64,000 nucleotides of DNA from an uncultured bacterium. GTDB taxonomy: Bacteria > Patescibacteriota > Minisyncoccia > Phycocordibacterales > UBA9973. Location: positions 7,185-71,184 of the forward strand of contig CAIQAL010000001.1 of NCBI GenBank assembly GCA_903869825.1. The letters are read 5' to 3'. Each line of letters begins with the position of its first letter. The stretch's first letter is position 1. This document shows, one piece after another, positions 1 through 62,823 of the stretch. The translations under genes were made by a program, and so were the position numbers. The notes below the pieces were generated by a model. That model searched no databases. It had not been told where the DNA came from and worked only from the letters and a program-made list of their open reading frames with translations.

Positions 1-588
1 TTTGGTTGTTTTAGCTTACGTAGTAAAGAATATTGCATTTTAAATAAACAATACGGAAAAGCGGAATATGAAAAACTTGTACCAGAAATTATTGAAAATA
101 TGAGAGCGAGCGGGGACTGGGGTAATTTCTTTCCGGTTTGGATGAGTCCTTTCGGCTATAACGAGTCTATCTCAAATGAGTACATGCCGCTTGAGAAAAG
201 TGAAGCTTTGTCGCAAGGATTTACCTGGCGGGATAATATTCCATGTACGAAAGGGCAAGAAAATTGCAATTATAGAGACTTGCCAAAAGATTCCGTGGAA
301 TATTCCGATAAAGATTTACTAGATAAAATTTTGAAGTGTGAGTCTTGCGATAAAAATTATCGCTTTATTTCTCGTGAAATTTCCTTTTATAAACGAATGG
401 GTCTAGCTCTTCCCGCTAAGTGCTTTAATTGTCGGCACCAAGTGAGAATGAACAATAGAAATCCAAGAATTCTAAATGAGGTGACTTGTGTCGCTTGCGG
501 AGACAAAACCATGACTACTTATCCGAAAGAGAAGCACAAAATTTATAAAATATATTGCGAGGATTGTTATAAAAAAGAAATAAACTAA
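1..588 (+). CDS. Cys-rich double zinc-ribbon paralog family protein, copy A (5'-truncated by window edge; C-terminal ~195 aa present)
   Basis: Frame is open from base 1 (FGCFSLRSKEYCILNKQYGKAEYEKL...) to the TAA at 586-588. The ORF-track entry 100..588 is only the internal-Met portion. The C-terminal architecture (YKRMGLALPAKCFNCRH ... YCEDCYKKEIN) aligns with the C-termini of copies B-F. Confidence 0.6.
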   Translation, partial: FGCFSLRSKEYCILNKQYGKAEYEKLVPEIIENMRASGDWGNFFPVWMSPFGYNESISNEYMPLEKSEALSQGFTWRDNIPCTKGQENCNYRDLPKDSVEYSDKDLLDKILKCESCDKNYRFISREISFYKRMGLALPAKCFNCRHQVRMNNRNPRILNEVTCVACGDKTMTTYPKEKHKIYKIYCEDCYKKEIN

Positions 589-19441: not shown

Positions 19442-19442
19442 G

Positions 19443-19524
19443 TGCTGGAGGAGGGACTCGAACCCTCAAGCCTTGCGGCACTAGTTCCTAAGACTAGCGC
19501 GTATACCAATTCCGCCACTCCAGC
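19443..19524 (-). tRNA. tRNA-Leu (anticodon TAG), type II, long variable arm
   Basis: Reverse complement GCTGGAG-TG-GCGGAATTGGTATACGC-...-CTAGT-CTTAGGA-ACTAG-long arm-GGGTTCGAGTCCC-CTCCAGC-A. Acceptor 7 bp; anticodon loop CTTAGGA; CCA not encoded. Confidence 0.8.
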
Positions 19525-19562
19525 AAACATAATTTTATATAAATGTTTTAATTAAACATTTG

Positions 19563-19635
19563 TCCGCCCTGAAGGGATCGAACCTTCGACCTTATCCTTA
19601 AGAGGGATCTGCTCTACCAGCTGAGCTAAGGGCGG
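19563..19635 (-). tRNA. tRNA-Lys (anticodon CTT)
   Basis: Reverse complement CCGCCCT-TA-GCTCAGCTGGTAGAGC-A-GATCC-CTCTTAA-GGATA-AGGTC-GAAGGTTCGATCCCTTC-AGGGCGG-A. Anticodon loop CTCTTAA. Confidence 0.7.
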
Positions 19636-19681
19636 ATAATTAACTTTAACATGAAAATGAAAACAAATCTTATTAAGTTGT

Positions 19682-19763
19682 GTGCCCGGAGTGGGAGTCG
19701 AACCCACATCCCTTGCGAGACACGATTTTAAGTCGTGCGCGTATACCAATTCCGCCATCCGGG
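19682..19763 (-). tRNA. tRNA-Leu (anticodon TAA), type II
   Basis: Reverse complement GCCCGGA-TG-GCGGAATTGGTATACGC-...CACGA-CTTAAAA-TCGTG-long arm-GGGTTCGACTCCC-TCCGGGC-A. Confidence 0.8.
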
Positions 19764-19781
19764 CATTCTTGATTTGGACGG

Positions 19782-19853
19782 GAGGCCTGGGCCGGAATTG
19801 AACCGGCGTATATTCCTTTTGCAGAGGAATGCCTTACCACTTGGCTACCAGGC
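19782..19853 (-). tRNA. tRNA-Cys (anticodon GCA)
   Basis: Reverse complement GGCCTGG-TA-GCCAAGTGGTAAGGC-A-TTCCT-CTGCAAA-AGGAA-...-GCCGGTTCAATTCCGGC-CCAGGCC-T. Confidence 0.75.
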
Positions 19854-19911
19854 CTGAAAAATTTCAAATTTATCTTACTTAACTCCCAAGCTTCAAAAAA
19901 CCTTTTTAATC

Positions 19912-23893: not shown

Positions 23894-23936
23894 GAAAGAA
23901 ATTTTGACTAAATAAATAAAGTGATATAATAGAGGC

Positions 23937-24695
23937 ATGGACATGAAAGATTTAAACCAATCACAATTAATATTATTGGCTATTTTAATAAGTTTTATAA
24001 CCTCTATTGCCACAGGAATTGTTACGGTTACCTTATTGCAACAGGCTCCAGCTTCAGTAACAATGCCGATAAATAGAATCGTGAGACAAACAGTTGAAAA
24101 AATAGTTCCTGGGGAAGGAAAGAATACTGTCCAGACAGTTGTAGTAAAAGAGGAAGATTTAGTAGTAGACGCCATTGCCAAAAATGAGTCAGCAGTGTTT
24201 AGTGTGACTAAAGATGGGCTGGATCAAAACGGATCATATGGTGAAGTTTCTGCGGGACGAGGGGTCGCGGTTTCCAGTTCAGGAATTATAGCTGTTGATG
24301 CAAGCCTTGCGCCTGGTAGCGGGAATTATTATGTTAAAAATGGTAGTGGAAAATTTAAAGCAACTTTTCTCTTAGTCGACAAACTCGGATTCTCTCTTTT
24401 AAAGGTAGAGGATTCACTTGATTCAAAAAACAAATTAGCTTATACCAAACCCGTGGCAGGAGATTTGAGTAAAATGAAGGCCGGACAAAAAATAATCTTG
24501 TTTGGCAGTTCAATAGCTTCATTCATTTATGATGGTTCAGATGATTTGAAAATAAGTGTTGCAAAATCAAACGCTGGGGGACTAATACTTGATTTAGATG
24601 GAAATGCTCTTGGGGTTGCTTTATCTGGTGAAAATACTTCTTTTGTTTCAATTTCCGATGTATTTAAAGTATCCGAGGCGTCTCCGAAAGTGTAA
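23937..24695 (+). CDS. membrane-anchored trypsin-like (HtrA/S1C-fold) domain protein, apparently catalytically inactive
   Basis: N-terminal TM. Core aligns to S1C motifs but lacks His and Ser: AVDASL where TNxHV is expected, SNAGGLILDLDGNALGV where GNSGGPL is expected. Confidence 0.4.
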   Translation: MDMKDLNQSQLILLAILISFITSIATGIVTVTLLQQAPASVTMPINRIVRQTVEKIVPGEGKNTVQTVVVKEEDLVVDAIAKNESAVFSVTKDGLDQNGSYGEVSAGRGVAVSSSGIIAVDASLAPGSGNYYVKNGSGKFKATFLLVDKLGFSLLKVEDSLDSKNKLAYTKPVAGDLSKMKAGQKIILFGSSIASFIYDGSDDLKISVAKSNAGGLILDLDGNALGVALSGENTSFVSISDVFKVSEASPKV

Positions 24696-27460: not shown

Positions 27461-27507
27461 CGAAAAATTAAAGACCTTCTTGTAAAAACAAGGAGACCTT
27501 TTCGGTG

Positions 27508-27590
27508 TGCGTCGGGTAGGATTCGAACCTACGTAGCCCGAAGGCGACAGATTTACAGTCTGTTGTAATTGACCACTCTACCACCGACGC
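27508..27590 (-). tRNA. tRNA-Tyr (anticodon GTA), type II
   Basis: Reverse complement GCGTCGG-TG-GTAGAGTGGTCAATTAC-...CAGA-CTGTAAA-TCTG-long arm GCCTTCGGGCTAC-GTAGGTTCGAATCCTAC-CCGACGC-A. Confidence 0.75.
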
Positions 27591-30330: not shown

Positions 30331-32116
30331 ATGGAAATTCTAAACGAGATTTGTCAAAATTGTAAAGAAGATTTTTTGATTGATTATGAAGACTTAAGTT
30401 TTTACGAAAAAATGAAAGTCCCTCCGCCGACGTTTTGTTGGCTTTGTCGGGCACAAAGACGAATGGCATGGCGCAACGAGAGTAGTCTCTTTAAAAGAAA
30501 AAGTGATTATTCCGGAAAAGAGATTTTTTCTGCGTTTTCTCCGGAATCACCAGTAAAAGTATATGAAAAAGATGTTTGGCTTTCCGATGTTTGGGAACCA
30601 ATAGATTACGGCAGAGAATATGATTTTTCAAAGTCTTTTTTTGAACAATTCAAGGAGTTACTTCGCACTGTACCACTAAAAAATTTAAACGTTATTCGTG
30701 GAGTGAACAGTGATTATTGCAACAACATAACAAATCCAAAAAATTCTTATTTATGTTTCAACGGAAAGGATGCGGAAGATTGTATGTATTCAAATGGACT
30801 GGCATACTTAAAAGACTGTGTAGATAGTTCTAACTGCGCCAAAAGCGAACGATGCTATGAATCTTTTTGGTTGAATTCTTGTACAGACACAGTTTTTTCT
30901 TCTCAGTGTCAAAATTCTTTTAAGTTATCTTTTTGTCGAGACTGCGCCAATTGTAATGATTGTTTTGGCTGCGTAGGGCTGAGAGGGAAAAGTTATTGTG
31001 TTTTTAATGAACCTTATAACAAAGAAAATTATTTTAAAAAAATTAATGAATACGATGTTTCCTCATATGTTGGCTTGCAGAATCTTTTAAAATTAAGGGC
31101 AGAGTTTTGGAAAAAATTTCCTAGAAAATTTATCGAGGGGTATCAAAATACAAATGTAGCAGGGAATTATATTGATAATTCCAGAAATGTGCGAAATTCA
31201 TATTTGATACGGGAGGGAGAAAATTTACGGTATTGCCAATATGTTCAAGAATTACCTGGAAGTAAGGATTGTTATGACTACACTGCCTGGGGGGACTCCA
31301 ACGAACTAGTGTATGAGTGCTCAGCTTGTGGTAACGGTACAAATTCAATTAAGTTTTGCTACAATGTTCAAGAAAACTCCTATAACGTAGAATATTCCTA
31401 TATGTGCACGGGTTCTTCATATTTATTTATTTGGTTGTGTTGGTTTAAAGAAAAAACAGTATTGTATTTTTAATAAACAGTATCCAAAAGAAGAATATGA
31501 AGTAATTGTTGAAAAAATTAAAAAACAAATGAACGAAATACCTTACTTGGATAAGAAAGGAAGAATATATAAATACGGAGAATTTTTTCCTATTGAACTT
31601 TCACCTTTTGCCTATAATGAAACATTAGCTCAAGAGTTTTTTGTTAAATCAGTTAAAGAAGCCAAAGAAGATGGATATTCTTGGACAAATGATGCTGACA
31701 AAAATTATGTTCCTACTAAAAGAACAAACGATTTACCGAACAGAATAGAAGAGGTTTCTGATGAAATTGTTAATGAGATTGTTGAATGTGAACATCAAGG
31801 CAAGTGTAATGACCGCTGTGCGACAGCTTTCAGAATTACTGAAAAAGAGCTCCAGTTTTATAGAAGGATGAAAATTCCTCTACCAAGACTTTGTCCCAAT
31901 TGCCGTCATTTTAAACGTTTGGAACAACGAACATTGTTGCAGACAGTGCATAAGAATTGTCAGTGTGCCGGCAATAATTCAGATGGTGGAATTTACAACA
32001 ACACAGTTGAACATCCTCATGGTGACAAACCTTGCTCTAATGAATTTGAAACAAATTATACTAGTGACACCGATATTATCTATTGTGAGAATTGCTACAA
32101 GAAAGAAGTGTATTAG
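30331..32116 (+). CDS. Cys-rich double zinc-ribbon paralog family protein, copy B (reading frame interrupted at an (ATTT)3 tract ~31418-31433)
   Basis: ORFs 30331..31473 and 31529..32116 are one gene. The downstream frame ...IYLFGCVGLKKKQYCIFNKQYPKEEYEVIVEKIKKQMNEIPYLDKKG... continues the paralog alignment; removing one ATTT unit restores a ~595-aa protein. Confidence 0.6.
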
Positions 32117-46220: not shown

Positions 46221-47932
46221 ATGGAAAATAGGATATGCCAAAACTGTCAGAAAGATTTCACAATCGAATCGGAGGATTTTTCATTTTACGAAAAAATTAA
46301 AGTCCCTTTACCAACCTTTTGCCCGGATTGTCGAACTCAAAGACGTTTTACCTGGAGAAATGAAAGAAATTTATATCGCAATAAGTGTGCAGCCACCGGA
46401 GCAAATGTAATCTCAGGTTTTTCCGTCGATTCTGGTATGACAATCTATGAAAGAGAATACTGGTGGAGCGACAAATGGGATCCAATGTCTTTTGGAGTGG
46501 ACTATGATTTTTCAAAACCTTTTTTCCTACAGTTTCAAAGTTTTATGAAAAGCACTCCGATGCCTTCCTCATTCAATGCCCGTACAATAAATAGCGAGTA
46601 TTTCAGCATACCGGAGATTTTAAGAATGCTTATCTGGTACACGCTTCCTGGGGTGGGGAGAATGTTTCTTATGCCGCACGAGTAAGCGAAGTAAAAGATT
46701 CTATGGATTCATTGGTTCTTTCTAACTCGGAACTTTGTTACGAAGTGATTGCCAGTAACAAATGCTACAACGTGACCCATTCCCAAAATCTTGAAGGTTG
46801 CAATAATTCTTCATTTTTATTTGAGTGTCGTGGATGTTCTGATTGTTTTGGTTGCGTTAACTTGCGCAACCAGAGTTACCATATTTTTAACGAACCATAC
46901 AGTCGGGAAAAATATTTAGAAAAAGTAAATGAATTTAACATTGGGAGTTATAAAAATTTTAAAGAAATCGAAAAGAACTTCAAGGATCTTAAGCAGAAAG
47001 CGATTCAAAAATACGCAAACATTGTAAATTCTCCCAACTGTACCGGAGATAATATCGTAAATTCATATAACTCTAAAAATTGTTTTGATCTTTATGGAGA
47101 GGTCAGGGATTGTAAGTTTATCCAAAATTGCGCCAAGTTCTTGAAAGACAGTTATGACGGATATGGAGTCGGCTCTTCGGCTGATCTTACCTATGAAGTT
47201 TTTGATACCGGGGTGCAAGGTTCTAGACTTTGTTTCGGGGCGGTTGTCTATGGTGGTCATGATGTCTATTATTCTTACAATTGTCACGGGAGTCAAAATT
47301 GTTTTGCTTGTGTAGGACTTCGCTCAAAATCTTACTGCATTTTTAATAAACAATACACCAAAGATGAGTATGAATCACTTGTTCCAAAGATAATAAAACA
47401 TATGAATGAAATGTCGTATGTTGATGCAAAGGGGAGAACATACAAATATGGAGAATTTTTCCCAAGTGACTTGAGTCCTTTTGCCTACAATGAAACTATC
47501 GCCCAAGAATATTTTTCATTAACCAAAGAAGAAGTTTTGAAACAAGGTTATAAATGGAGAGAAAAAGATGGAAGAAGCTACCAGATGGATATTAAAAATG
47601 AAAATATTCCAGATGATATTAAGGAAGTAGGTGAATCAATAATCGGGAAGGTTATAGAGTGTGAACACAAGGGTACCTGTAACGAACAATGTACTGAGGC
47701 CTTCAAACTTATCCCAGATAAATTACAATTTTACAAAAGGATGAATTTACCTTTACCTCGCATCTGCCCCAATTGTCGTCACTATGAAAGACTAGGAAAA
47801 AGAAATCCAATGAAGCTTTGGCTCAGAAAATGCATGAAGGAAGGTTGTCAAAACGAATTTGAAACGAGCTATGCTCCCTACCGATCGGAAACCGTTTATT
47901 GTGAAAGATGTTACCAACAAGAAGTCTACTAG
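46221..47932 (+). CDS. Cys-rich double zinc-ribbon paralog family protein, copy C (frame interrupted at a T-run ~46606-46612)
   Basis: ORFs 46221..46685 and 46703..47932 are one gene. In the -1 frame, NSEYF is followed by QHTGDFKNAYLVHASWGGENVSYAARVSEVKDSMDSLVLSNSELCYEV, which aligns to copy D. One extra T in the tatttc run restores the frame. Confidence 0.6.
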
Positions 47933-52163: not shown

Positions 52164-52775
52164 ATGAAAGATGAAGAAAAAGAAAAAAAAGAGGAAAATA
52201 AGGATGAAATGACGCCGAAGGAAGATGCTTCTGAGGTTTTAGAGTTTGAATTTAATGATGACGGAGAAGAAGATCTTAAAAAAACCATAAAAAAGCTTCG
52301 AGCAGAATTAAAGAAAATTAAAGCCGAAAAAGACGAATATTTAACCGGCTGGCAGAAAGAACGAGCGGATTTTGTGAACTACAAGAAACAAGACGAAGAC
52401 AGAAAGTTGAATTTCTCCGAATCAATCCGGGAAAGAATTCTAACCAGGTTTTTGAGTGTGGCGGACAGCTTCAATATGGCCTTTGCAAATAAAGAAGCTT
52501 GGGAAAAAGTTGATGAAAATTGGCGCAAAGGGGTGGAATATATCTATGGTCAGATGAATACTATATTTGAAGAATATGGAGTAAAATCAATCGGGGAAGC
52601 GGGAGAAAGTTTTGATCACAACATCCATCATTCGATAGAAATGATTCCGACTGATAAAAAAGAAGACGATCATAAAATTGCTGAGGTTATTCAAAGAGGA
52701 TACAAACTTGGTGACCGCGTAATTCGAGCTGCCCGAGTGAATGTTTTTGAGTACCATGACAAGCCCACAGAATAA
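52164..52775 (+). CDS. grpE: nucleotide exchange factor GrpE
   Basis: Acidic N-terminus, coiled coil (LRAELKKIKAEKDEYLTGWQKERADFVNYKK), C-terminal IQRGYKLGDRVIRAARVNV. Confidence 0.85.
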   Translation: MKDEEKEKKEENKDEMTPKEDASEVLEFEFNDDGEEDLKKTIKKLRAELKKIKAEKDEYLTGWQKERADFVNYKKQDEDRKLNFSESIRERILTRFLSVADSFNMAFANKEAWEKVDENWRKGVEYIYGQMNTIFEEYGVKSIGEAGESFDHNIHHSIEMIPTDKKEDDHKIAEVIQRGYKLGDRVIRAARVNVFEYHDKPTE

Positions 52776-54480
52776 AACCTGTCAGAATTGCAAGTGTGAC
52801 TTCATAATCGAATCTGAAGATTTTAATTTTTACGAGAAGATAAAGGTTCCACCACCGACTTGGTGTCCGGAATGTCGAATGATAAGACGTATGTCCTTTC
52901 GTGATTACAGGGTACTTTATAAAAGGAAAAGTGATAAAACGGGGAAAATAATTTTTTCTATTTTTCCACAAGAATCTCCTTTTAAAGTTTGGGAACGTGA
53001 TATTTGGTGGTCGGATGAATTGAATGCTCTTGATTACGGGAAAAACGTAGATTTTAATAAAAATTTCTTTATTCAACTAAAAGAACTTTTTTTTGATGTT
53101 CCTTCATCGGGGCAAACTTGTTGGAATATGGTCAATAGTGAGTATTGCACTGGTGCTAATAGTTTAAAAAATTGTTACCTGGTATTTGTATCCACGTTTT
53201 CAGAAGATTCCATGTATTGTGCAGAAATAAATAGAACAAAGAATTCTATTGACGTTACAAGAATCGAGTCGTCGGAATTGTGCTATCAATCTTTTGCTCT
53301 CATAAAGTGTTATCAAGCTTTCTTTTCTTCTCATTGTGAAAACTGCATGGATATCTGGTTTTCCAGAAACTTAGTTGGTTGTAATTATTGTTTTGGTTGT
53401 ACAAATTTAAGAAACAAGCAATACTGCGTTTTTAATAAACAATACACAAAAGAAAATTATATCAAATATGTAGATGATCTTGACCTAAGCTCTTACAAAT
53501 CAATGAAAGCGGTAAAAGAAAAGGCAGAAAAAGTAGTGGAAAAAAGTATCAGAAAATTCATGGAAGGACGATACAATTCTAATGTTTCCGGTGAGTACAT
53601 CAATAACTCAAAAAATACTTTTAATAGCTATTACGTTATTCAAGGAGAAGACAGTAAGTATGTTCAATCTTTTTTCACTCCTGGTTTTAAAGACTGCTAT
53701 GATTGTACGATGTGGGGACAAAATTCCGAATTATGCTATGAATGTTCTTCTGTCGGAGAAAATTGTTATAACAATAAATTTAATTATCGTTGCAGTAGAG
53801 GTTCGCATGATTGTGAGTATTCCTATAGTTGCTATGGAAGTTCAAATATTTTTGGTTGTTCTGGACTTATTAATAAACAATATTGCATTTTAAATAAACA
53901 GTACACAAAGGAAGAATATTCCAGACTAAGAGAAAAAGTAATCAAACACATGAATGATGTCCCATACTTAGACAAAAAGGGGACAATGTATACGTACGGA
54001 GAATTCTTCCCCTTAGAATTGTCTCCTTTTTCTTACAATGAATCAATGGCCCAGGATTATTTTCCCCTAGAAAAAAAACAAGCCGTTAACCTAGGTTTTA
54101 GGTGGAAGGATAAAGAAGAAAGGAATTACAAGATAGATATCAAAAATGAAAATATTCCTGATAGTAATAAAGACATTACGGAAGATATCTTAAACAAGGC
54201 GATTGAATGTGAAAACAAAAACAAAAACGTCGAATATTGTACTGAAGCGTTTAAAATTATTAAATCAGAGTTGCAGTTTTATAAAAAATTTAATTTACCA
54301 TTACCAAGATTATGCCCAAACTGTAGGCATTTTGATCGTTTAAAAATGAGGAATTCTTTGAAACTTTGGAACCGCAAATGTATGAAAGAAGGTTGTCAGA
54401 ATGAATTTGAAACCAGCTACGCTCCCGAATGTCCTGAAATCGTTTACTGTGAACGTTGTTATCAACAAGAAGTATACTAA
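52756..54480 (+). CDS. Cys-rich double zinc-ribbon paralog family protein, copy D
   Basis: Intact, ~575 aa. Start at ATG 52756 (MTSPQNKTCQNCKCDF...) overlaps the grpE stop by 20 nt in another frame; the ORF track's alternative start is 52741. Full architecture described in the findings. Confidence 0.65.
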   Translation: MTSPQNKTCQNCKCDFIIESEDFNFYEKIKVPPPTWCPECRMIRRMSFRDYRVLYKRKSDKTGKIIFSIFPQESPFKVWERDIWWSDELNALDYGKNVDFNKNFFIQLKELFFDVPSSGQTCWNMVNSEYCTGANSLKNCYLVFVSTFSEDSMYCAEINRTKNSIDVTRIESSELCYQSFALIKCYQAFFSSHCENCMDIWFSRNLVGCNYCFGCTNLRNKQYCVFNKQYTKENYIKYVDDLDLSSYKSMKAVKEKAEKVVEKSIRKFMEGRYNSNVSGEYINNSKNTFNSYYVIQGEDSKYVQSFFTPGFKDCYDCTMWGQNSELCYECSSVGENCYNNKFNYRCSRGSHDCEYSYSCYGSSNIFGCSGLINKQYCILNKQYTKEEYSRLREKVIKHMNDVPYLDKKGTMYTYGEFFPLELSPFSYNESMAQDYFPLEKKQAVNLGFRWKDKEERNYKIDIKNENIPDSNKDITEDILNKAIECENKNKNVEYCTEAFKIIKSELQFYKKFNLPLPRLCPNCRHFDRLKMRNSLKLWNRKCMKEGCQNEFETSYAPECPEIVYCERCYQQEVY

Positions 54481-54481
54481 T

Positions 54482-56137
54482 ATGAAACCAGAAACAAGAA
54501 CATGCGAACATTGTGGTAAGGAATTCTCTATTTCAGAAGAAGAATTAAATATGTATAAGAAGATAGATATTGAATTACCGACTATTTGCTTTTTTTGCCG
54601 AGTAAAAATTCACTTGTCTTTTTGGATGTTCGGAAAATTTCGAAAAGGAAAATCTGATCTTTCTGGGGAAAGCTTAATAACAGTTTTGCCTAATAAAAAT
54701 CGTTATCCAATCTATACTCTAACGGAATGGTGGAGCGATAAATGGGATGCAATGGATTTTGGACAAGATTACGATCAACAAAGAACTTTTTTTTCTCAGC
54801 TAAAGGAATTGCAAGAAAAAGTCCCGCATCCACATCAAAACGGTAGTAAAAATACAGGATGTGATTGGTGTGACGATGTTTGGAATTCTAAAAATTGTTA
54901 TTTAGCTCGCTCGATGGTTGATTGTGAAGATTTATATTATTCTTACAGAAACTTAAATGTTAAAAATTCTATAGATGTGACTGTTTGCTATAACTCTGAA
55001 AAGCTATTTGATTCGTTAAATTGCCTTCATTCTTTTAAAATTTTTTATTCAAGAAACTCAAGAGACTGTGTAGAATCGTATTTTTTATTTGATTGTCGTA
55101 ATTGTCAAAATTGTTTCATGTGCTGGAACTTGAGAGGTAAATCATTTTGTATAGAAAATATCCAATATACTAGGGATGATTATTTTGAAAAATTAAAATC
55201 ATTTAACTTAGGGTCATATAAGTCAATTCAAAATTTCAAAATAAGATTTGAGGAAATAGCACGTACCGAAGTTGTGCATAGAGAAAATTTTAACCTTAAA
55301 ATTCATAATTCTGACGGAGATCAATTAATTAACTGTAAGAATTGTCATAACTCGTTTACTATAAGCGATTCAGAAGATAGTTATAATTGCATAAGAGGAA
55401 AGAATGAAAAGTCTAACATTGACGCCAATGGCACATGGGATTCTGAATTAATAGGTAATTGTAGTTCTTGTTTTGGTGGTTATATGCAAAAATATTGTGC
55501 TTGGTCAACTTCTCGATTTTCAGAATACTTGGATTTATGTTTAGAATGCGAAAATTGTTTTGGTTGTGTCGGACTTAAAAAGAAAAAATATTGTATTTTA
55601 AATAAGCAATATGAAAAAGAAGAATATGAAAAACTTATGTTGGAAATTATTACTAATATGAAAAAAAGGGGAGAGTATGGAAAGTTTTTACCTTTTCTAA
55701 TGTCTGCAGGGCCATTTAATTTCTCTACAAGCTTTCTGTATTTTCCAGAAACGAAAAAAGAAGATATTTTAAAGCTTGGAGGTTATTGGGAGGATGTTGA
55801 TGAAAGTCATATCGAAGGAATGCTGACTAGTGAATTACCTGATAGCATAAAAGATGTTCCTGATAATATTATTACCGAAGCCTTAATTTGTCCACAAACT
55901 GGTTGGCGTTTCAATATTGCACAGAACGAACTAAATTTTTACCGGCAAAATAATATTCCGCTGCCTAGACGACATTTTGATGTTAGAATTAAAGACAATA
56001 TAAAATATTCGACAGTGTTGCAATCTTATCATTACAAATGTTTTTATTGTAAAATAGATATCGATGGCTATTATCCGCCGGAGTGGGAATATAAAAAAAT
56101 TGCTTGTGAAGAGTGTTACAAGCAAAATATTAACTAA
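54482..56137 (+). CDS. Cys-rich double zinc-ribbon paralog family protein, copy E
   Basis: Starts 1 nt after copy D's stop (MKPETRTCEHCGKEFSISEEELNMYKKIDIELPTICFFCR...). The ORF-track start 54401 lies inside D and is rejected. ~551 aa. Confidence 0.65.
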   Translation: MKPETRTCEHCGKEFSISEEELNMYKKIDIELPTICFFCRVKIHLSFWMFGKFRKGKSDLSGESLITVLPNKNRYPIYTLTEWWSDKWDAMDFGQDYDQQRTFFSQLKELQEKVPHPHQNGSKNTGCDWCDDVWNSKNCYLARSMVDCEDLYYSYRNLNVKNSIDVTVCYNSEKLFDSLNCLHSFKIFYSRNSRDCVESYFLFDCRNCQNCFMCWNLRGKSFCIENIQYTRDDYFEKLKSFNLGSYKSIQNFKIRFEEIARTEVVHRENFNLKIHNSDGDQLINCKNCHNSFTISDSEDSYNCIRGKNEKSNIDANGTWDSELIGNCSSCFGGYMQKYCAWSTSRFSEYLDLCLECENCFGCVGLKKKKYCILNKQYEKEEYEKLMLEIITNMKKRGEYGKFLPFLMSAGPFNFSTSFLYFPETKKEDILKLGGYWEDVDESHIEGMLTSELPDSIKDVPDNIITEALICPQTGWRFNIAQNELNFYRQNNIPLPRRHFDVRIKDNIKYSTVLQSYHYKCFYCKIDIDGYYPPEWEYKKIACEECYKQNIN

Positions 56138-56138
56138 T

Positions 56139-56672
56139 TTATTTTTTGAGAGCTTTAAGAAATTCCAGATTTGTTTCCGGATCAAGTTTTTCAGTAACAA
56201 TAATCATCAATTCCGAACAAAGGCCCAAATCTTTTTTAATATTCGTGAAAAGATATTCGTATGGATGAGGGGAGATCCAGACGGTATTTTTTATGCAAAC
56301 GAAATTCGCTTTCTTGAGTAAGTAGCGTAATGCTTCACGTTCGCTTTTTCTTTCTTCAGGAATATCTAAAATTATAATTCGCCAAAGTCCGTCCCAGGTA
56401 TTTGACACGAGTGCTTCTTCGCCTTCGAGACGAATGGAGTTTAATTTTCTTTGGCCTTTTTTGGTAATTTTCAGGTATTTTTGGTTGTCGGAACTGTGGA
56501 TTTCCACGCAACCTGATTCGATTAATTGCTTGATAGAGCGGGCGAGGGCATAGTTTTTCTTTTGGTCTTTCCCTTTTATTGCTTCAACAGAAATGGCAGG
56601 TTTTTCAGACAAAACTTTCAAAATAGCCTTTTGAATATTGGGTTTTTTGATGTTTTTTACTACTTTATCCAT
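56139..56672 (-). CDS. PaaX-family-like transcriptional regulator (N-terminal winged helix + PaaX_C-like domain), short form
   Basis: WDGLWRIIILDIPEERKSEREALRYLLKKANFVCIKNTVWISPHPYE matches the PaaX C-terminal signature (WDG.W...D.PE..R..R..L...GF..L.NSVW.SP). N-terminal wHTH IQKAILKVLSEKPAISVEAI. Its stop is 1 nt from copy E's stop on the other strand. Confidence 0.5.
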   Translation of the reverse strand: MDKVVKNIKKPNIQKAILKVLSEKPAISVEAIKGKDQKKNYALARSIKQLIESGCVEIHSSDNQKYLKITKKGQRKLNSIRLEGEEALVSNTWDGLWRIIILDIPEERKSEREALRYLLKKANFVCIKNTVWISPHPYEYLFTNIKKDLGLCSELMIIVTEKLDPETNLEFLKALKK

Positions 56673-56709
56673 AACACTTGCATTATACCAAAATCTGATT
56701 ATAATATCA

Positions 56710-56739
56710 ACAAGTATTTTGCGACCACGAAATACTTGT
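56710..56739. promoter_or_regulatory. perfect 10-bp inverted repeat ACAAGTATTT-N10-AAATACTTGT (operator candidate) in the regulator/dnaK divergent region
   Basis: Arms at 56710-56719 and 56730-56739. The right arm overlaps the putative dnaK -35 box. Confidence 0.45.
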
Positions 56740-56764
56740 CAAAATTATTAGATGGGTATATACT
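56736..56764 (+). promoter_or_regulatory. sigma70 promoter candidate for dnaK (TTGTCA-17-TATACT)
   Basis: TTGTCA at 56736-56741 and TATACT at 56759-56764; leader ~55 nt to the dnaK ATG. Confidence 0.4.
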
Positions 56765-56825
56765 TGAAAAGTAAAATAAATTATTAGCTTGCCCCGCCAA
56801 AAGCGTGGGATAATCGAAAAAAAAT

Positions 56826-58736
56826 ATGTCAAAAATTATTGGGATAGACTTAGGTACAACAAATTCAGCGGTAGCTATAATTGAAGGAGGCGTACCAAAA
56901 ATTATTGAAAACGTCGAAGGAAATCGCACGACTCCTTCGGTGGTAGCAACTGCTAAAAATGGCGATCGTATCGTGGGGTTACTTGCAAAAAGACAAGCAG
57001 TGACAAATCCAGAAAATACCATCGCGGAAATCAAGCGCTATATGGGGCACCGCTTTGATGATCCGGGAGTGCAAAAAGATAAAATTTCTGCTCCATTTAA
57101 AATTGAAGCTGAAGAAAACGGCGGAGTGAAAGTAAAAATGTCCGACAAATTTTATCGGCCGGAAGAAATTTCTGCCATGGTATTGCAGAAAATAAAAGCA
57201 GACGTCGAAGCAAAATTGGGAGAAAAAATTACCGAAGCGGTCATTACCGTGCCGGCATATTTTAATGATGCTCAAAGAAAGGCAACGAAAGATGCTGGTC
57301 TTATTGCTGGGCTTGATGTAAAGAGAATTATCAACGAACCGACGGCCGCAGCGCTTGCTTACGGATTCAATAAAAAGAAAAATGAAAAGATTGTGGTATA
57401 CGATTTCGGAGGTGGAACCTTTGATGTGTCTGTACTTGAGATCGGAGATGATGTAATAGAAGTAAAATCGACCGATGGAGACTCTCACATGGGCGGAGGT
57501 GATATTGATCGAAAAATAATTACTTGGATTGCGGAAGAATACAAAAAGGAATCTGGAGTGGACGTTAGAAAAGATCCACTTGCTCACCAACGTTTAAAGG
57601 AAGCGGCTGAAAAAGCAAAACACGAACTCTCTACCACAATGGAAACAGAAATCAATATTCCTTTTATCACTTCCGATGCATCAGGACCGAAACACTTACT
57701 CATGAAAATGTCTCGAGCCACCTTGGAATCTTTGGCCAAAGAATACATTGACCGCTCGATAGAGATAACCAAGCGTGCTTTAGAAGCTTCGCCGTTTAAA
57801 ATGGCGGAGATAGATGAGATTATTATGGTTGGCGGTCAAACTCGAATGCCAGCTATTGTAGAGGCGGTAAAAAACCTTTTCGGGAAAGCTCCAAATATGT
57901 CTATCAACCCGGATGAAGTCGTAGCTCTTGGAGCTGCAGTGCAGGCAGGAGTGTTGGCAGGAGACGTGCGAGATGTTTTACTGCTCGACGTCATTCCACT
58001 TTCCTTGGGAATTGAAACCTTGGGAGGCGTGGGAACAAAATTGATTGAAAGAAATACTACTATTCCGGCTTCAAAATCACAAGTGTTTTCAACTGCTGCC
58101 GACAATCAAACAAGCGTTGAGATTCATATTGTCCAAGGAGAACGTCCGATGGCCGCTGACAACAAATCACTCGGCCGGTTTATTTTGGATGGTGTTCCAC
58201 CATCTCCTCGAGGAATGCCTCAAATCGAAGTCACTTTTGATATTGATGCAAACGGAATCTTAAATGTGAAAGCGCAAGATAAAGCATCCGGGAAAGTGCA
58301 ATCAATCAAGATTGAAGCAAGTTCTGGATTAAAAGATGAGGATATTAAAAAAATGCAAGCGGATGCTGAAATTCACGCAGAAGAAGATAAAAAGAAAAGG
58401 GAATTAGTGGATGTGAAAAATACCGCTGAGATGATTATTTACACTGCGGAAAAAGCAGTGAAAGAGAATGATGCAAAAATTCCGGAAGATATCAAGAAAA
58501 CAGTAAATGAGAAAATCTCAGCTCTTCGTTCAGTAAAAGACAGTACGGATATGGAGGCTGTCAAAAAAGCGACCGAAGAACTTTCAGCTGAGATGTCTAA
58601 AATCGGCGAAGCTATGGCAAAAGCTGGAGCGACCGATACCAAAGACACAACCCCAGAAGAACAAAATCCAGAAGTGTACGATGCCGAATTCAAGGAAGAT
58701 AAAGACAAGCCTGGAAGCGAAGCTCCTAAACAATAA
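56826..58736 (+). CDS. dnaK: molecular chaperone DnaK (Hsp70)
   Basis: [34 protein letters not shown]; 636 aa. Confidence 0.95.
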
Positions 58737-58749
58737 AATTTGTTTTCAA

Positions 58750-58778
58750 AAAGACCCAACATGGGGCTTTTTGTTTTT
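58750..58778 (+). terminator. terminator candidate after dnaK (imperfect stem + T-rich run)
   Basis: AAGACCCAACATGGGGCTTTTTGTTTTT. Confidence 0.35.
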
Positions 58779-58787
58779 CACCTTTGT

Positions 58788-58796
58788 GATATAATT
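58788..58796 (+). promoter_or_regulatory. extended -10 (TGaTATAAT) 7 nt upstream of the ATPase-1 ATG; candidate leaderless transcript
   Basis: TGTGATATAAT at 58786-58796; ATG at 58803. Confidence 0.35.
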
Positions 58797-58802
58797 TATC
58801 TA

Positions 58803-61037
58803 ATGGAAATGCCGAAAATACCTATGAATAAGGATATGACCTATATTGGTTTGACCACTTATCGTGATAAAAACCAGCTTTTTGGGATTAAACGAAAAGA
58901 CCGTCGTCAGCATGTATATTTACTAGGGAAGTCTGGTACCGGTAAATCCGTCCTGATGTTCAATATGATTATCCAGAACATCAAGAATGGCGATGGAGTT
59001 TGTGTAGTTGACCCGCACGGAGAACTCGTGGAAGGAGTTCTTTCTGCTATTCCACCACACCGAATGAAAGATGTTGTTTACTTTAATCCAGCCGATCCGG
59101 ACTATCACATTGGTTTTAATGTGCTTGAACTTATTGACCCGAAATACAAACACCTTATCGCTTCGGGCCTCATGGGAATTTTTACCAAAATTTGGGCGAA
59201 TGCTTGGAGTGCTCGAATGGAATACATTTTGAACAATGCTATTTTGGCTTTGCTTGATACTCCGGGGACGACGATGCTTGGAATCCCGAGAATGCTGGTG
59301 GACAAAGATTATCGCCAGAAAATAATTTCAAATTTAAAAGACCCGGTCATTAAAGCTTTTTGGATTCATGAATATGAAGAATGGCAAGACAAATTTCGAA
59401 ACGAAGCGATTGCTCCTATTCAAAATAAAGTCGGGCAATTTCTTTCGACCCCGATTATCAGAAATGTCGTTGGCCAAGCGGAAAGCACAATAAATATTTT
59501 TGACATAATGAACGAAGGAAAGATTTTCTTAGTGAACGTTTCAAAAGGACGTATCGGAGAAGATAACTCATCGCTTTTGGGAGGAATGATTATTACCAAA
59601 ATTCAGTTGGCTGCAATGGAACGGGTTCGAATTCCGGAAGAGGAACGAAGAGATTTTTATTTGTATGTTGACGAATTTCAAAATTTTGTTACCGATTCTT
59701 TTGCCGGGATATTGTCGGAAGCTAGAAAATACCGCTTAAACTTAACGGTGGCGCACCAGTACACTGCCCAGCTTGTTTCGGACAAAAGTTCCAGTGTTAG
59801 AGATGCTGTTTTCGGAAACGTTGGAACAATGATTGTTTTTCGAGTAGGTTCGGATGACGCAGACTTTTTGGAAAAGGAATTTGATCCAGAATTTACTCCC
59901 CAAGATATTGTAAACTTACCAAACTACAAAATTTATCTTAAATTAATGATTGATGGAGTCACTTCTAGACCATTCTCAGCTAAAACTTTGCCACCAATGG
60001 CGCACGGAGATCCGAAAGTGGAAGAAGAAGTAATAAAAAGTTCTCGTGAACTTTATTGTAAGACAAGAGAAATAGTAGAACGGGAAATAAATAATTGGAG
60101 TGGAATGTCGCTCGGCAATGAGAATGATACTGGAGGGGTTGAAAAGTTTCCTGCGGTTTGTTCAATTTGCAAAAAAGAAACTTTTGTCCCATTTAAACCT
60201 GAACCAGGCAGACCTGTTTACTGTAAGGATTGTATTGCAAAATTAAAATCAGGTGAATTAAAACCAGTCAAGGGTTCGATTAACCAGATCAAATATGATG
60301 AAGGTAAATTCTATAAACCACTGTCGGATCTAGGAATTGAATTTGAACAAAAAACTCCATCAGTGGCGCAAGCAAAAACAATGGAAGGAGATAGATATCC
60401 TGAGAGAACAGACAGAATAGGGCATGTGGATAATAATCAGACAAATGCTCGACCCGGAATTTTCTCCGCAATTAAAAAAGTATTTAATAAAAATGCTATG
60501 CCTGTCGGATTACAACCAAAGGGTAATTTAAATACGCAGCCGGTTAGAAATAATTTTATGAAAAATAAGCCAAAGGCAGTTCATTCAGCTAATGGCAATA
60601 TTGCCTTGAAGGAAATATTGAATAAAACCTTAAATGAAGCTTTGGCCGAAAAAAAACAAGTTCCAGAAATCAAGCCTGAACAGATTGTTAAAGAAAACCC
60701 AAATATTCCAAAACCAATTTCCTTAAATGAACTTAAAACTCAAACACCTGAAGTAACTTTTGTCCCGAAAGATAAATCAGCCAAACCGGAAGATATGAAT
60801 AGATTGAAGAATTTTATAATAGGAAAAAATTTAGAACATAAAGAAGAAGTTGTTCAGACTTCACCTTCCGTCGAACCTATTCCAGTATCAACTTCAACAT
60901 CAATGCCGATACCGGAACCAATTCCTGAACCAATTCCATCTCCGATTCCTCTTGCATTATCACCTGAACAAACACCGGAACCAAAAACTTCAACTAAGGA
61001 AGTGCCTGAAGATGTTCTCAGAAAAATGCTAGAGTAA
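58803..61037 (+). CDS. TraG/TraD/VirD4-type (type IV coupling-protein-like, AAA_10/TraG-D_C) ATPase with C-terminal CxxC...CxxC zinc ribbon and Pro-rich low-complexity tail (ATPase-1)
   Basis: Walker A LLGKSGTGKS, VVDPHGEL, Walker B FYLYVDEFQNF, and RKYRLNLTVAHQY...NVGTMIVFRVG (TraG-D_C-like). No N-terminal TM. C-terminal ribbon CSICKKETFVPFKPEPGRPVYCKDC. Start at 58803, because the upstream part of ORF 58740 contains the dnaK terminator. Confidence 0.6.
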   Translation: MEMPKIPMNKDMTYIGLTTYRDKNQLFGIKRKDRRQHVYLLGKSGTGKSVLMFNMIIQNIKNGDGVCVVDPHGELVEGVLSAIPPHRMKDVVYFNPADPDYHIGFNVLELIDPKYKHLIASGLMGIFTKIWANAWSARMEYILNNAILALLDTPGTTMLGIPRMLVDKDYRQKIISNLKDPVIKAFWIHEYEEWQDKFRNEAIAPIQNKVGQFLSTPIIRNVVGQAESTINIFDIMNEGKIFLVNVSKGRIGEDNSSLLGGMIITKIQLAAMERVRIPEEERRDFYLYVDEFQNFVTDSFAGILSEARKYRLNLTVAHQYTAQLVSDKSSSVRDAVFGNVGTMIVFRVGSDDADFLEKEFDPEFTPQDIVNLPNYKIYLKLMIDGVTSRPFSAKTLPPMAHGDPKVEEEVIKSSRELYCKTREIVEREINNWSGMSLGNENDTGGVEKFPAVCSICKKETFVPFKPEPGRPVYCKDCIAKLKSGELKPVKGSINQIKYDEGKFYKPLSDLGIEFEQKTPSVAQAKTMEGDRYPERTDRIGHVDNNQTNARPGIFSAIKKVFNKNAMPVGLQPKGNLNTQPVRNNFMKNKPKAVHSANGNIALKEILNKTLNEALAEKKQVPEIKPEQIVKENPNIPKPISLNELKTQTPEVTFVPKDKSAKPEDMNRLKNFIIGKNLEHKEEVVQTSPSVEPIPVSTSTSMPIPEPIPEPIPSPIPLALSPEQTPEPKTSTKEVPEDVLRKMLE
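60895..60960 (+). repeat. low-complexity PIPEPIPEPIPSPIP coding repeat in the ATPase-1 tail
   Basis: ccgataccggaaccaattcctgaaccaattccatctccgattcct. Confidence 0.5.
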
Positions 61038-61056: not shown

Positions 61057-62823
61057 GTGTTCAAAAATTTTATGAATTCGGAAACTAAAACCCCCAATTT
61101 TGATAAATTGTTAGATGAAATTTTAGAAAAAATTGTGCCTCACGAAAGAGAATGTGCACAGAAAGATATCTCAAAATATTGTGAAAAAAAATTCAGAATT
61201 TATGATGAAGATATAAAATTTTATAAATTACTTCGGGTGCCACCCCCAAAGTGTTGTCCGACTTGCCGGCGGCAGAGACGGAATGCCTTTACCAACAGAA
61301 TATATTTATATAAAAGAAAAGATGATGCTCCCGGGAATTCAAAGGAAGTAATATCTTTTGTTCCTCCTGTCTCGCCATTTGTTGTTTATAATTTGGATTA
61401 TTATAGAAGTTCCAAATGGGACCCAATTTCTTTTGCTGTTGACTATGATTTCTCAGTGCCATTTTTTGATCAATTTTTTGATTTACGATTGAAAGTGCCC
61501 CAGTATGCTATTGTACGGGACCCTTCAAGTATTAATAGCGAGTATTCTTTAAATGGGCGTAACTTAAAAAATGGTTATTTAGTGAGTGGTGGAACCGACT
61601 CAGAAAATCTCTGGTATAGTATTTTTATAAAAAATTCAAGGGAAGTTATGGACAGTCATAGTATAGACAAGTGCGAACAGTGCTCTGAAATGATTTTGAC
61701 CAAAAATATGAATCTATGCTTCTATTGTTATTTTTCTTTCAACTGTATCAGTTCTTATTTTTTACTTGATTGTCGTAATTGCCAAAATTGTTTTGGCTGT
61801 TCAAATTTGCGCAATAAAAAATATTGCTTTTTTAATAAACAACTTGGGAAAGTTGAGTACGAAGAAAAAATAAAATCTATGAGATTAGATTCTAGGTCTG
61901 GACTTAAAGATGCAAGAAAAAAATTTTGGGAATTCGTAAAGCAAAATCCAGTAAGAGCTTCTCGTTCCAGCCGGTCAGTAAATTCCAGTGGGTTGGCCAT
62001 TATCAATTCAAGGAATTGTCAGAATGTTATATCTTGTGAAAACGGAGAAAATGAAAGGTATGTCAATATGGTCACTAACCACAAAGACTCGATGGATGTG
62101 TACACTTCAGGTGATTCAGAACTTTTGTATGAAGTATCTTGGGTAGGAGCGGGCGCTTCAAATATTAAATTCTCATTTGGTTCAAAAAATGTTACTAATT
62201 GCGAATTTGTTATTAATTGTCATTATTGTGACAATTGTTTTGCTTGTATCGGACTTGAAAATAAAAAATATCATATTTTAAATCGCCCTTATGGTAGAGA
62301 CGAATATTTCAAAGAATTGGATAAAATTAAGTTATCTCTTTTAAAGAGCGGAGAGTATGGTGAGTTCCTACAGTGTCGATTTAGTACTTTTGCGTACAAT
62401 GGCTCTGAAGCAGATTTATATTTTCCACTTGATCAATACGAGACAAAAAAAATTGGGGCATACTATCAACCTGATAGTGGAATAGAAACACAAGGGATAA
62501 AAATTGCAGAAGCAAAAGATATCCCAGACAAAATAATTGATGTGGAAGATAATATTTTAGACGAAGCAATTACTTGCGAAAAAACCGGTCGCCTTTTTAA
62601 AATTATTAAAAGCGAACTTGATTTCTATAGAAGATATAAGCTACCCATTCCTACCTTTCACCCTTTGGAGCGAATGAAAAGCACTTATTGGTATTTGGTT
62701 GGAGATAATATCGTTTATAAAGATTTTTGTGATAAATGTGGAATTCCGATAGAAACAATCTATAATCCAAAAAATAATTGGAGACTTTATTGTGAAAGTT
62801 GTTATCAAAAAGAGGTATATTAA
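61057..62823 (+). CDS. Cys-rich double zinc-ribbon paralog family protein, copy F
   Basis: 588 aa, intact. CEKKFRIYDEDIKFYKLLRVPPPKCCPTCRRQRR ... CRNCQNCFGCSNLRNKKYCFFNKQ ... CEKTGRLFKIIKSELDFYRRYKLPIPTF ... YCESCYQKEVY. Confidence 0.65.
   Translation: MFKNFMNSETKTPNFDKLLDEILEKIVPHERECAQKDISKYCEKKFRIYDEDIKFYKLLRVPPPKCCPTCRRQRRNAFTNRIYLYKRKDDAPGNSKEVISFVPPVSPFVVYNLDYYRSSKWDPISFAVDYDFSVPFFDQFFDLRLKVPQYAIVRDPSSINSEYSLNGRNLKNGYLVSGGTDSENLWYSIFIKNSREVMDSHSIDKCEQCSEMILTKNMNLCFYCYFSFNCISSYFLLDCRNCQNCFGCSNLRNKKYCFFNKQLGKVEYEEKIKSMRLDSRSGLKDARKKFWEFVKQNPVRASRSSRSVNSSGLAIINSRNCQNVISCENGENERYVNMVTNHKDSMDVYTSGDSELLYEVSWVGAGASNIKFSFGSKNVTNCEFVINCHYCDNCFACIGLENKKYHILNRPYGRDEYFKELDKIKLSLLKSGEYGEFLQCRFSTFAYNGSEADLYFPLDQYETKKIGAYYQPDSGIETQGIKIAEAKDIPDKIIDVEDNILDEAITCEKTGRLFKIIKSELDFYRRYKLPIPTFHPLERMKSTYWYLVGDNIVYKDFCDKCGIPIETIYNPKNNWRLYCESCYQKEVY

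What the first reader, a model, noticed from the sequence alone, without database searches (positions are those of the whole stretch)
31405..31450. Copy B is broken by a +4 frameshift exactly at an (ATTT)3 tetranucleotide tract
Seen. The sequence ggttcttca-tatttatttattt-ggttgtgttgg has the upstream frame reading ...CTGSSYLFIWLCWFKEKTVLYF*, while the paralog-consistent continuation (FGCVGLKKKQYCIFNKQYPKEEYEVIVEKIKKQMNEIPYLDKKG...) is in the next frame. With two ATTT units instead of three, the frame reads ...GSSYLFGCVGLKKKQYC..., matching intact copies such as D (GSSNIFGCSGLINKQYC). A short simple-sequence repeat exactly at the lesion is what slipped-strand mispairing, i.e. phase variation, produces. 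It is also what a sequencing or assembly error in a low-complexity tract of a multi-copy family produces.
Basis: seen in the sequence. Interest (0 to 1): 0.55.

Follow-up and report, generated by a model that had tools for sequence, protein, structure and literature searches.

The report
Four-base slippage frameshift, likely young pseudogene
One of six copies of an uncharacterised cysteine-rich gene family in this small-genome (Patescibacteria-type) bacterium is broken by a 4-base duplication that turned ATTT-ATTT into ATTT-ATTT-ATTT. It looks like an ordinary recent inactivating mutation, not a genetic on/off switch.

Summary
Gene B (30331-32116, +) is interrupted at TATTTATTTATTT (31420-31432). 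Removing one 4-base unit restores a 593-aa ORF that aligns end to end with about 590-aa intact orthologs (72-73% identity), which read SSYLFGC at this site.

The slipped-strand origin is supported; phase variation is not.
- The tract has only 3.25 units, created by the mutation itself from an in-frame two-unit TAT-TTA-TTT.
- None of 192 intact family copies from other genomes has an expanded tract here, although 14 carry the two-unit form.
- A degenerate search of 241 million metagenome records found no family member with three or more units at this site.
- Period-4 tracts are not enriched in the window or in the family.

A second copy (C, 46221-47932) is broken by a 1-base deletion at a non-repeat site. 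In other genomes 7 of 196 complete copies carry nonsense or frameshift lesions at various sites. So the family decays by ordinary mutation.

All other genes checked in the window are intact despite 101 homopolymers of 7 bases or more, which argues against a generally indel-prone assembly. The lesion is young: 135 of 136 conserved residues are retained.

Reads are unavailable, so an assembly error or a population polymorphism cannot be excluded. Low interest.

The parts
30331..32116 (+). Gene copy B of the cysteine-rich family, interrupted by one +4 frameshift. Repaired length is 593 aa.
   Evidence: tblastn of the repaired protein hits frames 1 and 2 contiguously. It aligns full length to orthologs.
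31420..31432 (+). TATTTATTTATTT, 3.25 units of period 4. This is the lesion: one extra 4-nt unit relative to the inferred ancestral TAT TTA TTT (Y-L-F).
30331..31473 (+). Truncated ORF as it stands: 380 aa, made of 366 native residues plus 14 out-of-frame residues (IWLCWFKEKTVLYF) and a stop.
   Evidence: The identical 380-aa product is on record once, from a 72,755-bp contig.
31391..32116 (+). Downstream reading frame that holds the C-terminal 227 native residues. It is open from 31391, and the first start codon is the ATG at 31529 (195-aa ORF).
   Evidence: It retains 56 of 57 conserved family columns.
46221..47932 (+). Copy C, also frame-broken. The frame changes between 46601 and 46616 (gagtatttcagcatacc). 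The change is equivalent to a 1-nt deletion and there is no simple repeat.
   Evidence: With one base added it aligns without gaps to its nearest intact relatives.
1..588 (+). Copy A, C-terminal part only, cut by the window start.
   Evidence: tblastn, query residues 366-592.
52756..54480 (+). Copy D, intact.
54482..56137 (+). Copy E, intact, directly downstream of D.
61057..62823 (+). Copy F, intact.

Best explanation
Gene B carries a real, evolutionarily recent 4-nt tandem duplication. It arose by replication slippage at a pre-existing in-frame two-unit repeat, TAT-TTA-TTT, which encodes the conserved Tyr-Leu-Phe before the Gly-Cys-Val-Gly-Leu motif. The insertion shifts the frame after residue 366. 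The product is truncated at 380 aa and loses 227 residues, including the second FGCVGL motif and the C-terminal zinc-ribbon-like cysteines.

The genome holds at least five other paralogs in this 64-kb window alone, so selection against losing one copy is probably weak. B is therefore a young pseudogene, either fixed or the major allele in the sampled population. It is not a contingency locus.

Shown: the lesion, the repaired frame, the ancestral state inferred from orthologs, the absence of the tract elsewhere, and the retention of conserved residues.
Inferred: that the lesion is biological rather than technical, that the truncated product is non-functional, and that paralog redundancy explains its tolerance.
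For: 1. Removing one unit restores a 593-aa ORF that is colinear with more than 100 intact homologs of about 590 aa. The best are 72-73% identical.
2. The closest orthologs encode SSYLFGC with non-repeat codons (TAT CTT TTT). Three intact family copies elsewhere use exactly TATTTATTT and 11 more use xATTTATTT, all in frame, so two units is the normal state.
3. No intact copy among 192 has an expanded tract at this site. Only one period-4 tract of 12 nt or more occurs in 329 kb of family DNA (0.003/kb, against 0.019/kb in the surrounding loci).
4. A degenerate scan of the metagenome collection for three or more ATTT units followed by Gly-Cys-Val/Ile-Gly-Leu codons returned only two contigs unrelated to the family.
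5. The family decays by ordinary mutation. Copy C is broken by a 1-nt deletion at a non-repeat site. In other Patescibacteria genomes, 5 copies carry single in-frame nonsense codons (TGA, TAA, TAG, TGA, TAA) and 2 carry frameshifts at other positions, out of 196 complete copies.
6. The only two frame-broken genes found in the window both belong to this family, which fills about 14.5% of the window. Under random placement that would happen about 2% of the time (my arithmetic). All other suspicious ORF pairs are distinct full-length genes by Pfam. None of the 101 homopolymers of 7 nt or more disrupts a gene.
7. The lesion is young. Repaired B keeps 79 of 79 upstream and 56 of 57 downstream columns that are at least 93% conserved. 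The ratio of C-terminal to N-terminal identity to orthologs is 0.845, inside the family range of 0.82-0.94.
Against: No reads and no second assembly of this organism are available. All four window proteins looked up are singletons from one 72,755-bp contig. The flanking-sequence pattern is absent from the genome and metagenome collections. Whether the allele is real, fixed or a minority allele is therefore untested.

The complete lack of secondary decay is equally compatible with an assembly artefact or with a reversible state. Two of six copies broken in one window is more than the roughly 3.6% seen elsewhere. That could point to something specific to this assembly or population.
Confidence: 0.72

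Rival explanations
1. Assembly, polishing or sequencing artefact: the organism really has two ATTT units and an intact gene B.
For: The gene shows no other damage. The genome is known from a single metagenome-assembled contig. A second family member also has a lone indel. The lesion lies in the stretch of B most similar at DNA level to its paralogs (70-82% identity over 72-253 nt). This is where mis-mapped reads during polishing would be least unlikely.
Against: Every other gene examined in the window is full length, despite 101 homopolymers of 7-9 nt, which are the classic sites of indel error. A 4-nt insertion at a two-unit repeat is not a typical error of short-read or long-read chemistry (general knowledge). 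The paralogs are too divergent for collapse or chimeric assembly (46% aa identity or less; no DNA match above 82%). Both halves of B match the same orthologs best. Random errors would fall outside the family 85% of the time.
Confidence: 0.17
2. Simple-repeat-mediated phase variation: the ATTT tract is a contingency switch that reversibly turns copy B off and on in the population.
For: The frame break sits exactly on a tetranucleotide repeat and could revert by losing one unit. The gene is otherwise perfectly preserved. The family is multi-copy, as many phase-variable families are. Three units meets the most permissive detection threshold for a simple repeat used for H. influenzae (PMC2651432).
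Against: - At 3.25 units the tract is below the five-unit cut-off for tetranucleotide phase variation (PMC6321876). In H. influenzae Rd all 12 tetranucleotide repeats with at least 3 units also had at least 4, and 3 was the maximum expected by chance.
- The tract is not conserved. Orthologs and 192 intact paralogs have two units or fewer, or non-repeat codons, and none in the metagenome scan has three or more.
- Simple repeats are not enriched in the family, the window or the tandem-repeat scan.
- The tract is 61% into the ORF rather than near the 5' end.
- Other copies are inactivated by nonsense codons and non-repeat indels.
Confidence: 0.06
3. Programmed +1 ribosomal frameshifting, or another recoding event, yields a full-length protein from the three-unit allele.
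For: A +1 shift anywhere between 31391 and 31432 would restore the native C-terminus with one extra residue (reading).
Against: The shift is not conserved in any ortholog or paralog. There is no in-frame stop or recognisable stimulatory element at the site as in prfB-type sites (general knowledge). The frameshifts in copy C and in L067 are at different sites with different sequences.
Confidence: 0.01

Closest known systems
Ordinary bacterial pseudogenes created by slipped-strand indels at short tandem repeats
   Same: A single unit-length tandem duplication at a pre-existing short repeat. It causes a frameshift and premature stop relative to intact orthologs. It sits in a member of a redundant paralog family in which other copies carry nonsense and frameshift lesions.
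   Different: Nothing material. It is unusually young, with no secondary lesions and conserved residues retained.
Tetranucleotide contingency loci of Haemophilus influenzae and Neisseria (e.g. AGTC in mod, CAAT in lic genes)
   Same: A tetranucleotide repeat inside an ORF whose unit number sets the reading frame. Multi-copy gene family.
   Different: Those tracts are long (typically at least 5 units, often 15-40), conserved as tracts but variable in length between strains, usually near the 5' end, and over-represented in the genome. Here there are 3 units, unique to this one gene copy, mid-gene, with no enrichment.
prfB-type programmed +1 ribosomal frameshifting
   Same: A +1 shift would be needed to read through.
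   Different: No conservation of the shift, no in-frame stop at the site, and no recognisable stimulator. Orthologs are unshifted.

Membership tests
SSR-mediated phase-variable (contingency) locus | Repeat tract long enough to be hypermutable (tetranucleotide: at least 5 units in PhasomeIt; experimentally studied tracts are much longer) | tested here: not met
   3.25 units, 13 nt. Cut-offs are from PMC6321876. Three units equals the chance maximum in PMC2651432.
SSR-mediated phase-variable (contingency) locus | Tract present at the homologous site in relatives, with variable unit number | tested here: not met
   The closest orthologs use TAT CTT TTT. Of 192 intact copies, 14 have the two-unit form and none has more. 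The metagenome scan for three or more units at this site gave 0 family hits. No same-species genome exists to compare.
SSR-mediated phase-variable (contingency) locus | Over-representation of simple repeats in the gene family or genome | tested here: not met
   Window: 3 period-4 tracts against 1.8 expected. Family DNA: 0.003/kb against 0.019/kb background. The tandem-repeat scan shows no array with more than 4 copies.
SSR-mediated phase-variable (contingency) locus | Length heterogeneity within a population (reads) and reversible ON/OFF expression | not testable with these tools
   No reads. The source contig is not retrievable.
Pseudogene (recent, unitary lesion) | Reading frame disrupted relative to intact full-length orthologs and paralogs | tested here: met
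Pseudogene (recent, unitary lesion) | Lesion is derived, i.e. absent from relatives | tested here: met
Pseudogene (recent, unitary lesion) | Signs of relaxed constraint or secondary decay | tested here: not met
   135 of 136 conserved columns are kept. The C/N identity ratio of 0.845 is within the family range. This fits only a very young lesion, and it also leaves room for an artefact.
Pseudogene (recent, unitary lesion) | Lesion is real in the organism's DNA and the gene product is lost | not testable with these tools
   Needs reads and expression data.
Programmed ribosomal frameshift site | Frameshift conserved among orthologs, with a conserved slippery or stimulatory context | tested here: not met
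   All close orthologs are single ORFs. Other broken copies break elsewhere.

The most novel reading that the evidence does not exclude
The three-unit ATTT tract is a low-rate but genuinely reversible switch, and members of this large Patescibacteria-specific cysteine-rich family are stochastically silenced and reactivated within populations. That would be a first hint of contingency-type behaviour in ultra-small, mostly uncultured bacteria.
Probability: 0.04. Interest if true: 0.5.

Novelty: already known. Interest (0 to 1): 0.12.

Why it matters
As it stands it matters little. It is an example of how slippage at a two-unit repeat inactivates one member of a redundant family, and a reminder that a repeat at a frameshift can be the product of the mutation rather than a pre-existing switch.

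Practically, copies B and C should be annotated as pseudogenes or flagged for read-level checking, not as two separate ORFs each.

The more interesting object is the family itself. It is very large (more than 7000 homologs), restricted to Patescibacteria, multi-copy, and has no Pfam, NCBIfam, PADLOC or structural match.

Tried and rejected
- Other assemblies of the same strain. An exact flank pattern with a variable gap found 0 hits in genome contigs and 0 in metagenome contigs. Exact-protein look-ups for the 380-aa ORF and both neighbours found no record. Cluster look-up shows singletons. No population or strain comparison was therefore possible.
- Recurrent expansion at the site. A degenerate DNA scan found only two unrelated chance matches.
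- A conserved frameshift position shared by copy C and L067. They lie about 8 residues apart and differ in nature: a 1-nt deletion in C and, by my reading of the sequence, a deletion of roughly 17-20 nt in L067. Rejected.
- Paralog-collapse misassembly. The paralogs are too divergent at DNA level. Rejected.
- Other split genes as a sign of a poor assembly. RbfA/IF-2, NifS-like/bPH_2, GyrA, MnmA/MgtC and others are all separate full-length genes.
- Function of the family. Pfam, NCBIfam and PADLOC gave nothing, apart from a sub-threshold treble-clef zinc-finger hit on copy F. The PDB sequence profile search gave nothing. The AlphaFold2 model has mean pLDDT 68 with a poorly predicted repeat core. 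Foldseek against PDB gave no match with E < 5.
- Re-initiation at the ATG at 31529. This could not be judged, because none of the nine other gene starts examined, nor B's own start, shows a Shine-Dalgarno motif.
- Literature on phase variation or pseudogenes in Patescibacteria. Nothing relevant turned up.

Full report
**The observation**

The window reads ...ggttcttca TATTTATTTATTT ggttgtgttgg... at 31420-31432. The ORF that starts at 30331 runs through the tract as Y-L-F-I-W-L-C-W-F-K... and stops at 31473, giving 380 aa. The next frame reads I-Y-L-F-G-C-V-G-L-K-K-K-Q-Y-C... and stays open to 32116.

Deleting one 4-nt unit gives a single 593-aa ORF.

**The gene and its family**

The repaired protein has more than 7000 homologs. 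All are unnamed or 'hypothetical', and they come from Patescibacteria-type metagenome-assembled genomes labelled Nomurabacteria, Staskawiczbacteria, Paceibacterota and similar. The best hits are intact proteins of 591-601 aa at 72-73% identity over 99-100% of the length.

There is no Pfam, NCBIfam or PADLOC match and no PDB sequence match. An AlphaFold2 model is of medium to low confidence (mean pLDDT 68) and has no Foldseek match in the PDB.

The window, at 36% G+C, carries six copies:
- A: 1-588, cut by the window edge
- B: 30331-32116
- C: 46221-47932
- D: 52756-54480
- E: 54482-56137
- F: 61057-62823

They lie scattered among housekeeping genes: a Mur ligase gene, clpB, a P-type ATPase gene, grpE and, by my reading of the sequence (no Pfam scan was run on it), dnaK.

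**Ancestral state of the site**

The closest orthologs read MCSGSSYLFGCIGLKKKQYC, encoded as TCA/TCG TAT CTT TTT GGC/GGG. B with two units reads TCA TAT TTA TTT GGT TGT GTT = S-Y-L-F-G-C-V. F366 and C368 are invariant in an 18-sequence alignment.

I recovered 192 intact family copies from 86 other loci. Nine use AATTTATTT, three use TATTTATTT and two use GATTTATTT at the homologous x-Leu-Phe codons. The two-unit repeat is therefore a normal in-frame way of encoding this motif in AT-rich genomes. The three-unit tract in B is the product of a one-unit tandem duplication, not a pre-existing simple repeat that happens to sit at the break.

**Is it a phase-variation tract?**

The evidence says no.

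1. Length. The tract has 3.25 units. [quoted passage not shown] The H. influenzae survey used three units only as a detection threshold, noted that three is the maximum expected by chance, and found that all 12 tetranucleotide repeats of strain Rd with at least 3 units also had at least 4 (PMC2651432).
2. Conservation. No ortholog or paralog has an expanded tract at this site. A degenerate scan of 241 million metagenome records for ATTTATTTATTT followed by Gly-Cys-Val/Ile-Gly-Leu codons returned two contigs, and neither has any similarity to the family.
3. Enrichment.
   - The window has three period-4 tracts of 12 nt or more, against 1.8 expected.
   - Family DNA elsewhere has one such tract in 329 kb, six-fold below the background of the surrounding loci.
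   - Tandem Repeats Finder reports no array with more than four copies in the window.
4. Position. The tract lies 61% of the way into the ORF.

**How the family's copies break elsewhere**

Copy C changes frame between 46601 and 46616, within gagtatttcagcatacc, which is not a repeat. Adding one base there gives a protein that aligns without gaps to its nearest intact relatives.

In the other genomes, five copies carry a single in-frame nonsense codon (TGA, TAA, TAG, TGA, TAA, at different positions). Two carry frameshifts at other sites. That is 7 disrupted copies out of 196 complete ones. Nonsense codons cannot come from repeat slippage, so the family loses copies by ordinary mutation.

**Real mutation or artefact?**

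This cannot be settled without reads. All four window proteins looked up are database singletons from one 72,755-bp contig. The flanking pattern is absent from both DNA collections, and the contig look-ups returned nothing.

Indirect evidence favours a real mutation:
- The window contains 101 homopolymers of 7-9 nt, and none disrupts a gene.
- Every other suspicious adjacent or overlapping ORF pair resolves into separate full-length genes.
- The only two broken genes both belong to a family that occupies about 14.5% of the window. Under random placement of two lesions that has a probability of about 0.02 (my arithmetic). This fits relaxed selection on redundant paralogs better than technical noise.
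- Paralog collapse is implausible. DNA similarity between copies never exceeds 82% over 72 nt, or 70-74% over about 250 nt. Both halves of B also match the same orthologs best.

**Age of the lesion**

Repaired B retains all 79 columns upstream of the lesion and 56 of 57 downstream that are at least 93% conserved. Intact homologs deviate at 1.6 and 1.05 of these on average.

Its ratio of C-terminal to N-terminal identity to orthologs is 0.845. That is near the low end of the family's range (0.82-0.94, median 0.88) but still inside it. The lesion is therefore very recent. The same pattern is also what an artefact would show.

**Recoding**

A +1 ribosomal shift would restore the frame. However, the shift is not conserved in any relative, there is no stop codon or recognisable stimulator at the site, and the other broken copies break elsewhere. 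I consider this negligible.

**Verdict**

The best explanation is a young pseudogene, fixed or the major allele, in a redundant multi-copy family (confidence about 0.72). The alternatives are an assembly error (about 0.17), true phase variation (about 0.06) and recoding (about 0.01). This is a known kind of event and of low interest. The uncharacterised family is the more notable feature of the window.

Noticed in passing
window 46221-47932 (lesion 46596-46616): A second family copy (C) is also frame-broken. The change is equivalent to a 1-nt deletion in gagtatttcagcatacc, which is not a simple repeat. The gene is otherwise open in both frames and colinear with intact relatives at 50-58% identity.
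   Followed up: yes
window 1-588, 30331-32116, 46221-47932, 52756-54480, 54482-56137, 61057-62823; loci L008-L086: A large uncharacterised cysteine-rich family of about 590 aa. It has more than 7000 homologs and at least 586 loci in species-representative genomes, essentially all labelled Patescibacteria. There are up to 9 copies within a 21-kb locus. No Pfam, NCBIfam, PADLOC or PDB match, and the AlphaFold2 core is poorly predicted.
   Followed up: partly
window 30331-32116 (protein residues 1-60 vs 477-553; 211-234 vs 366-388): The protein is internally duplicated. The N-terminal CxxC...CxxC zinc-ribbon-like module resembles a C-terminal one, and the CFGCVGLxxKxYCxFN motif occurs twice. The frameshift falls at the start of the second motif. 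Copy F's C-terminus weakly matches the treble-clef finger PF23477 (E = 0.0012), a domain also present in the neighbouring T4SS-coupling-like ATPase (58740-61037).
   Followed up: partly
L048 13460-15145; L062 540-2336; L063 16396-18081; L067 2779-4341 and 10007-11760; L068 1790-3529; L020 6438-7695: Family copies in other Patescibacteria genomes carry single in-frame nonsense codons or frameshifts at assorted positions (7 of 196 complete copies). L067, labelled a Staskawiczbacteria genome, has two damaged copies.
   Followed up: partly
window 23909-23920: (TAAA)3, the reverse-complement class of ATTT, lies in the intergenic spacer upstream of the ORF starting at 23937. It is one of only three period-4 tracts of 12 nt or more in the window.
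   Followed up: no
window, upstream of gene starts at 24761, 27668, 30331, 32161, 34053, 35942, 37054, 52756, 54482, 56826: No Shine-Dalgarno-like motif is visible upstream of any of the gene starts examined. Translation initiation in this organism seems not to rely on a strong SD.
   Followed up: no
window 19442-19855 (-) and 27507-27590 (-): A cluster of four tRNA genes (Leu-tag, Lys-ctt, Leu-taa, Cys-gca), plus a separate tRNA-Tyr between clpB and the P-type ATPase gene.
   Followed up: no
window 52164-58736: grpE (52164-52775) and the gene I read as dnaK (56826-58736; not scanned against Pfam) are separated by two tandem family copies (D, E) and a PaaX-like regulator on the opposite strand. 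The longest ORF of D overlaps the end of grpE, so its real start is probably the ATG at 52756.
   Followed up: no
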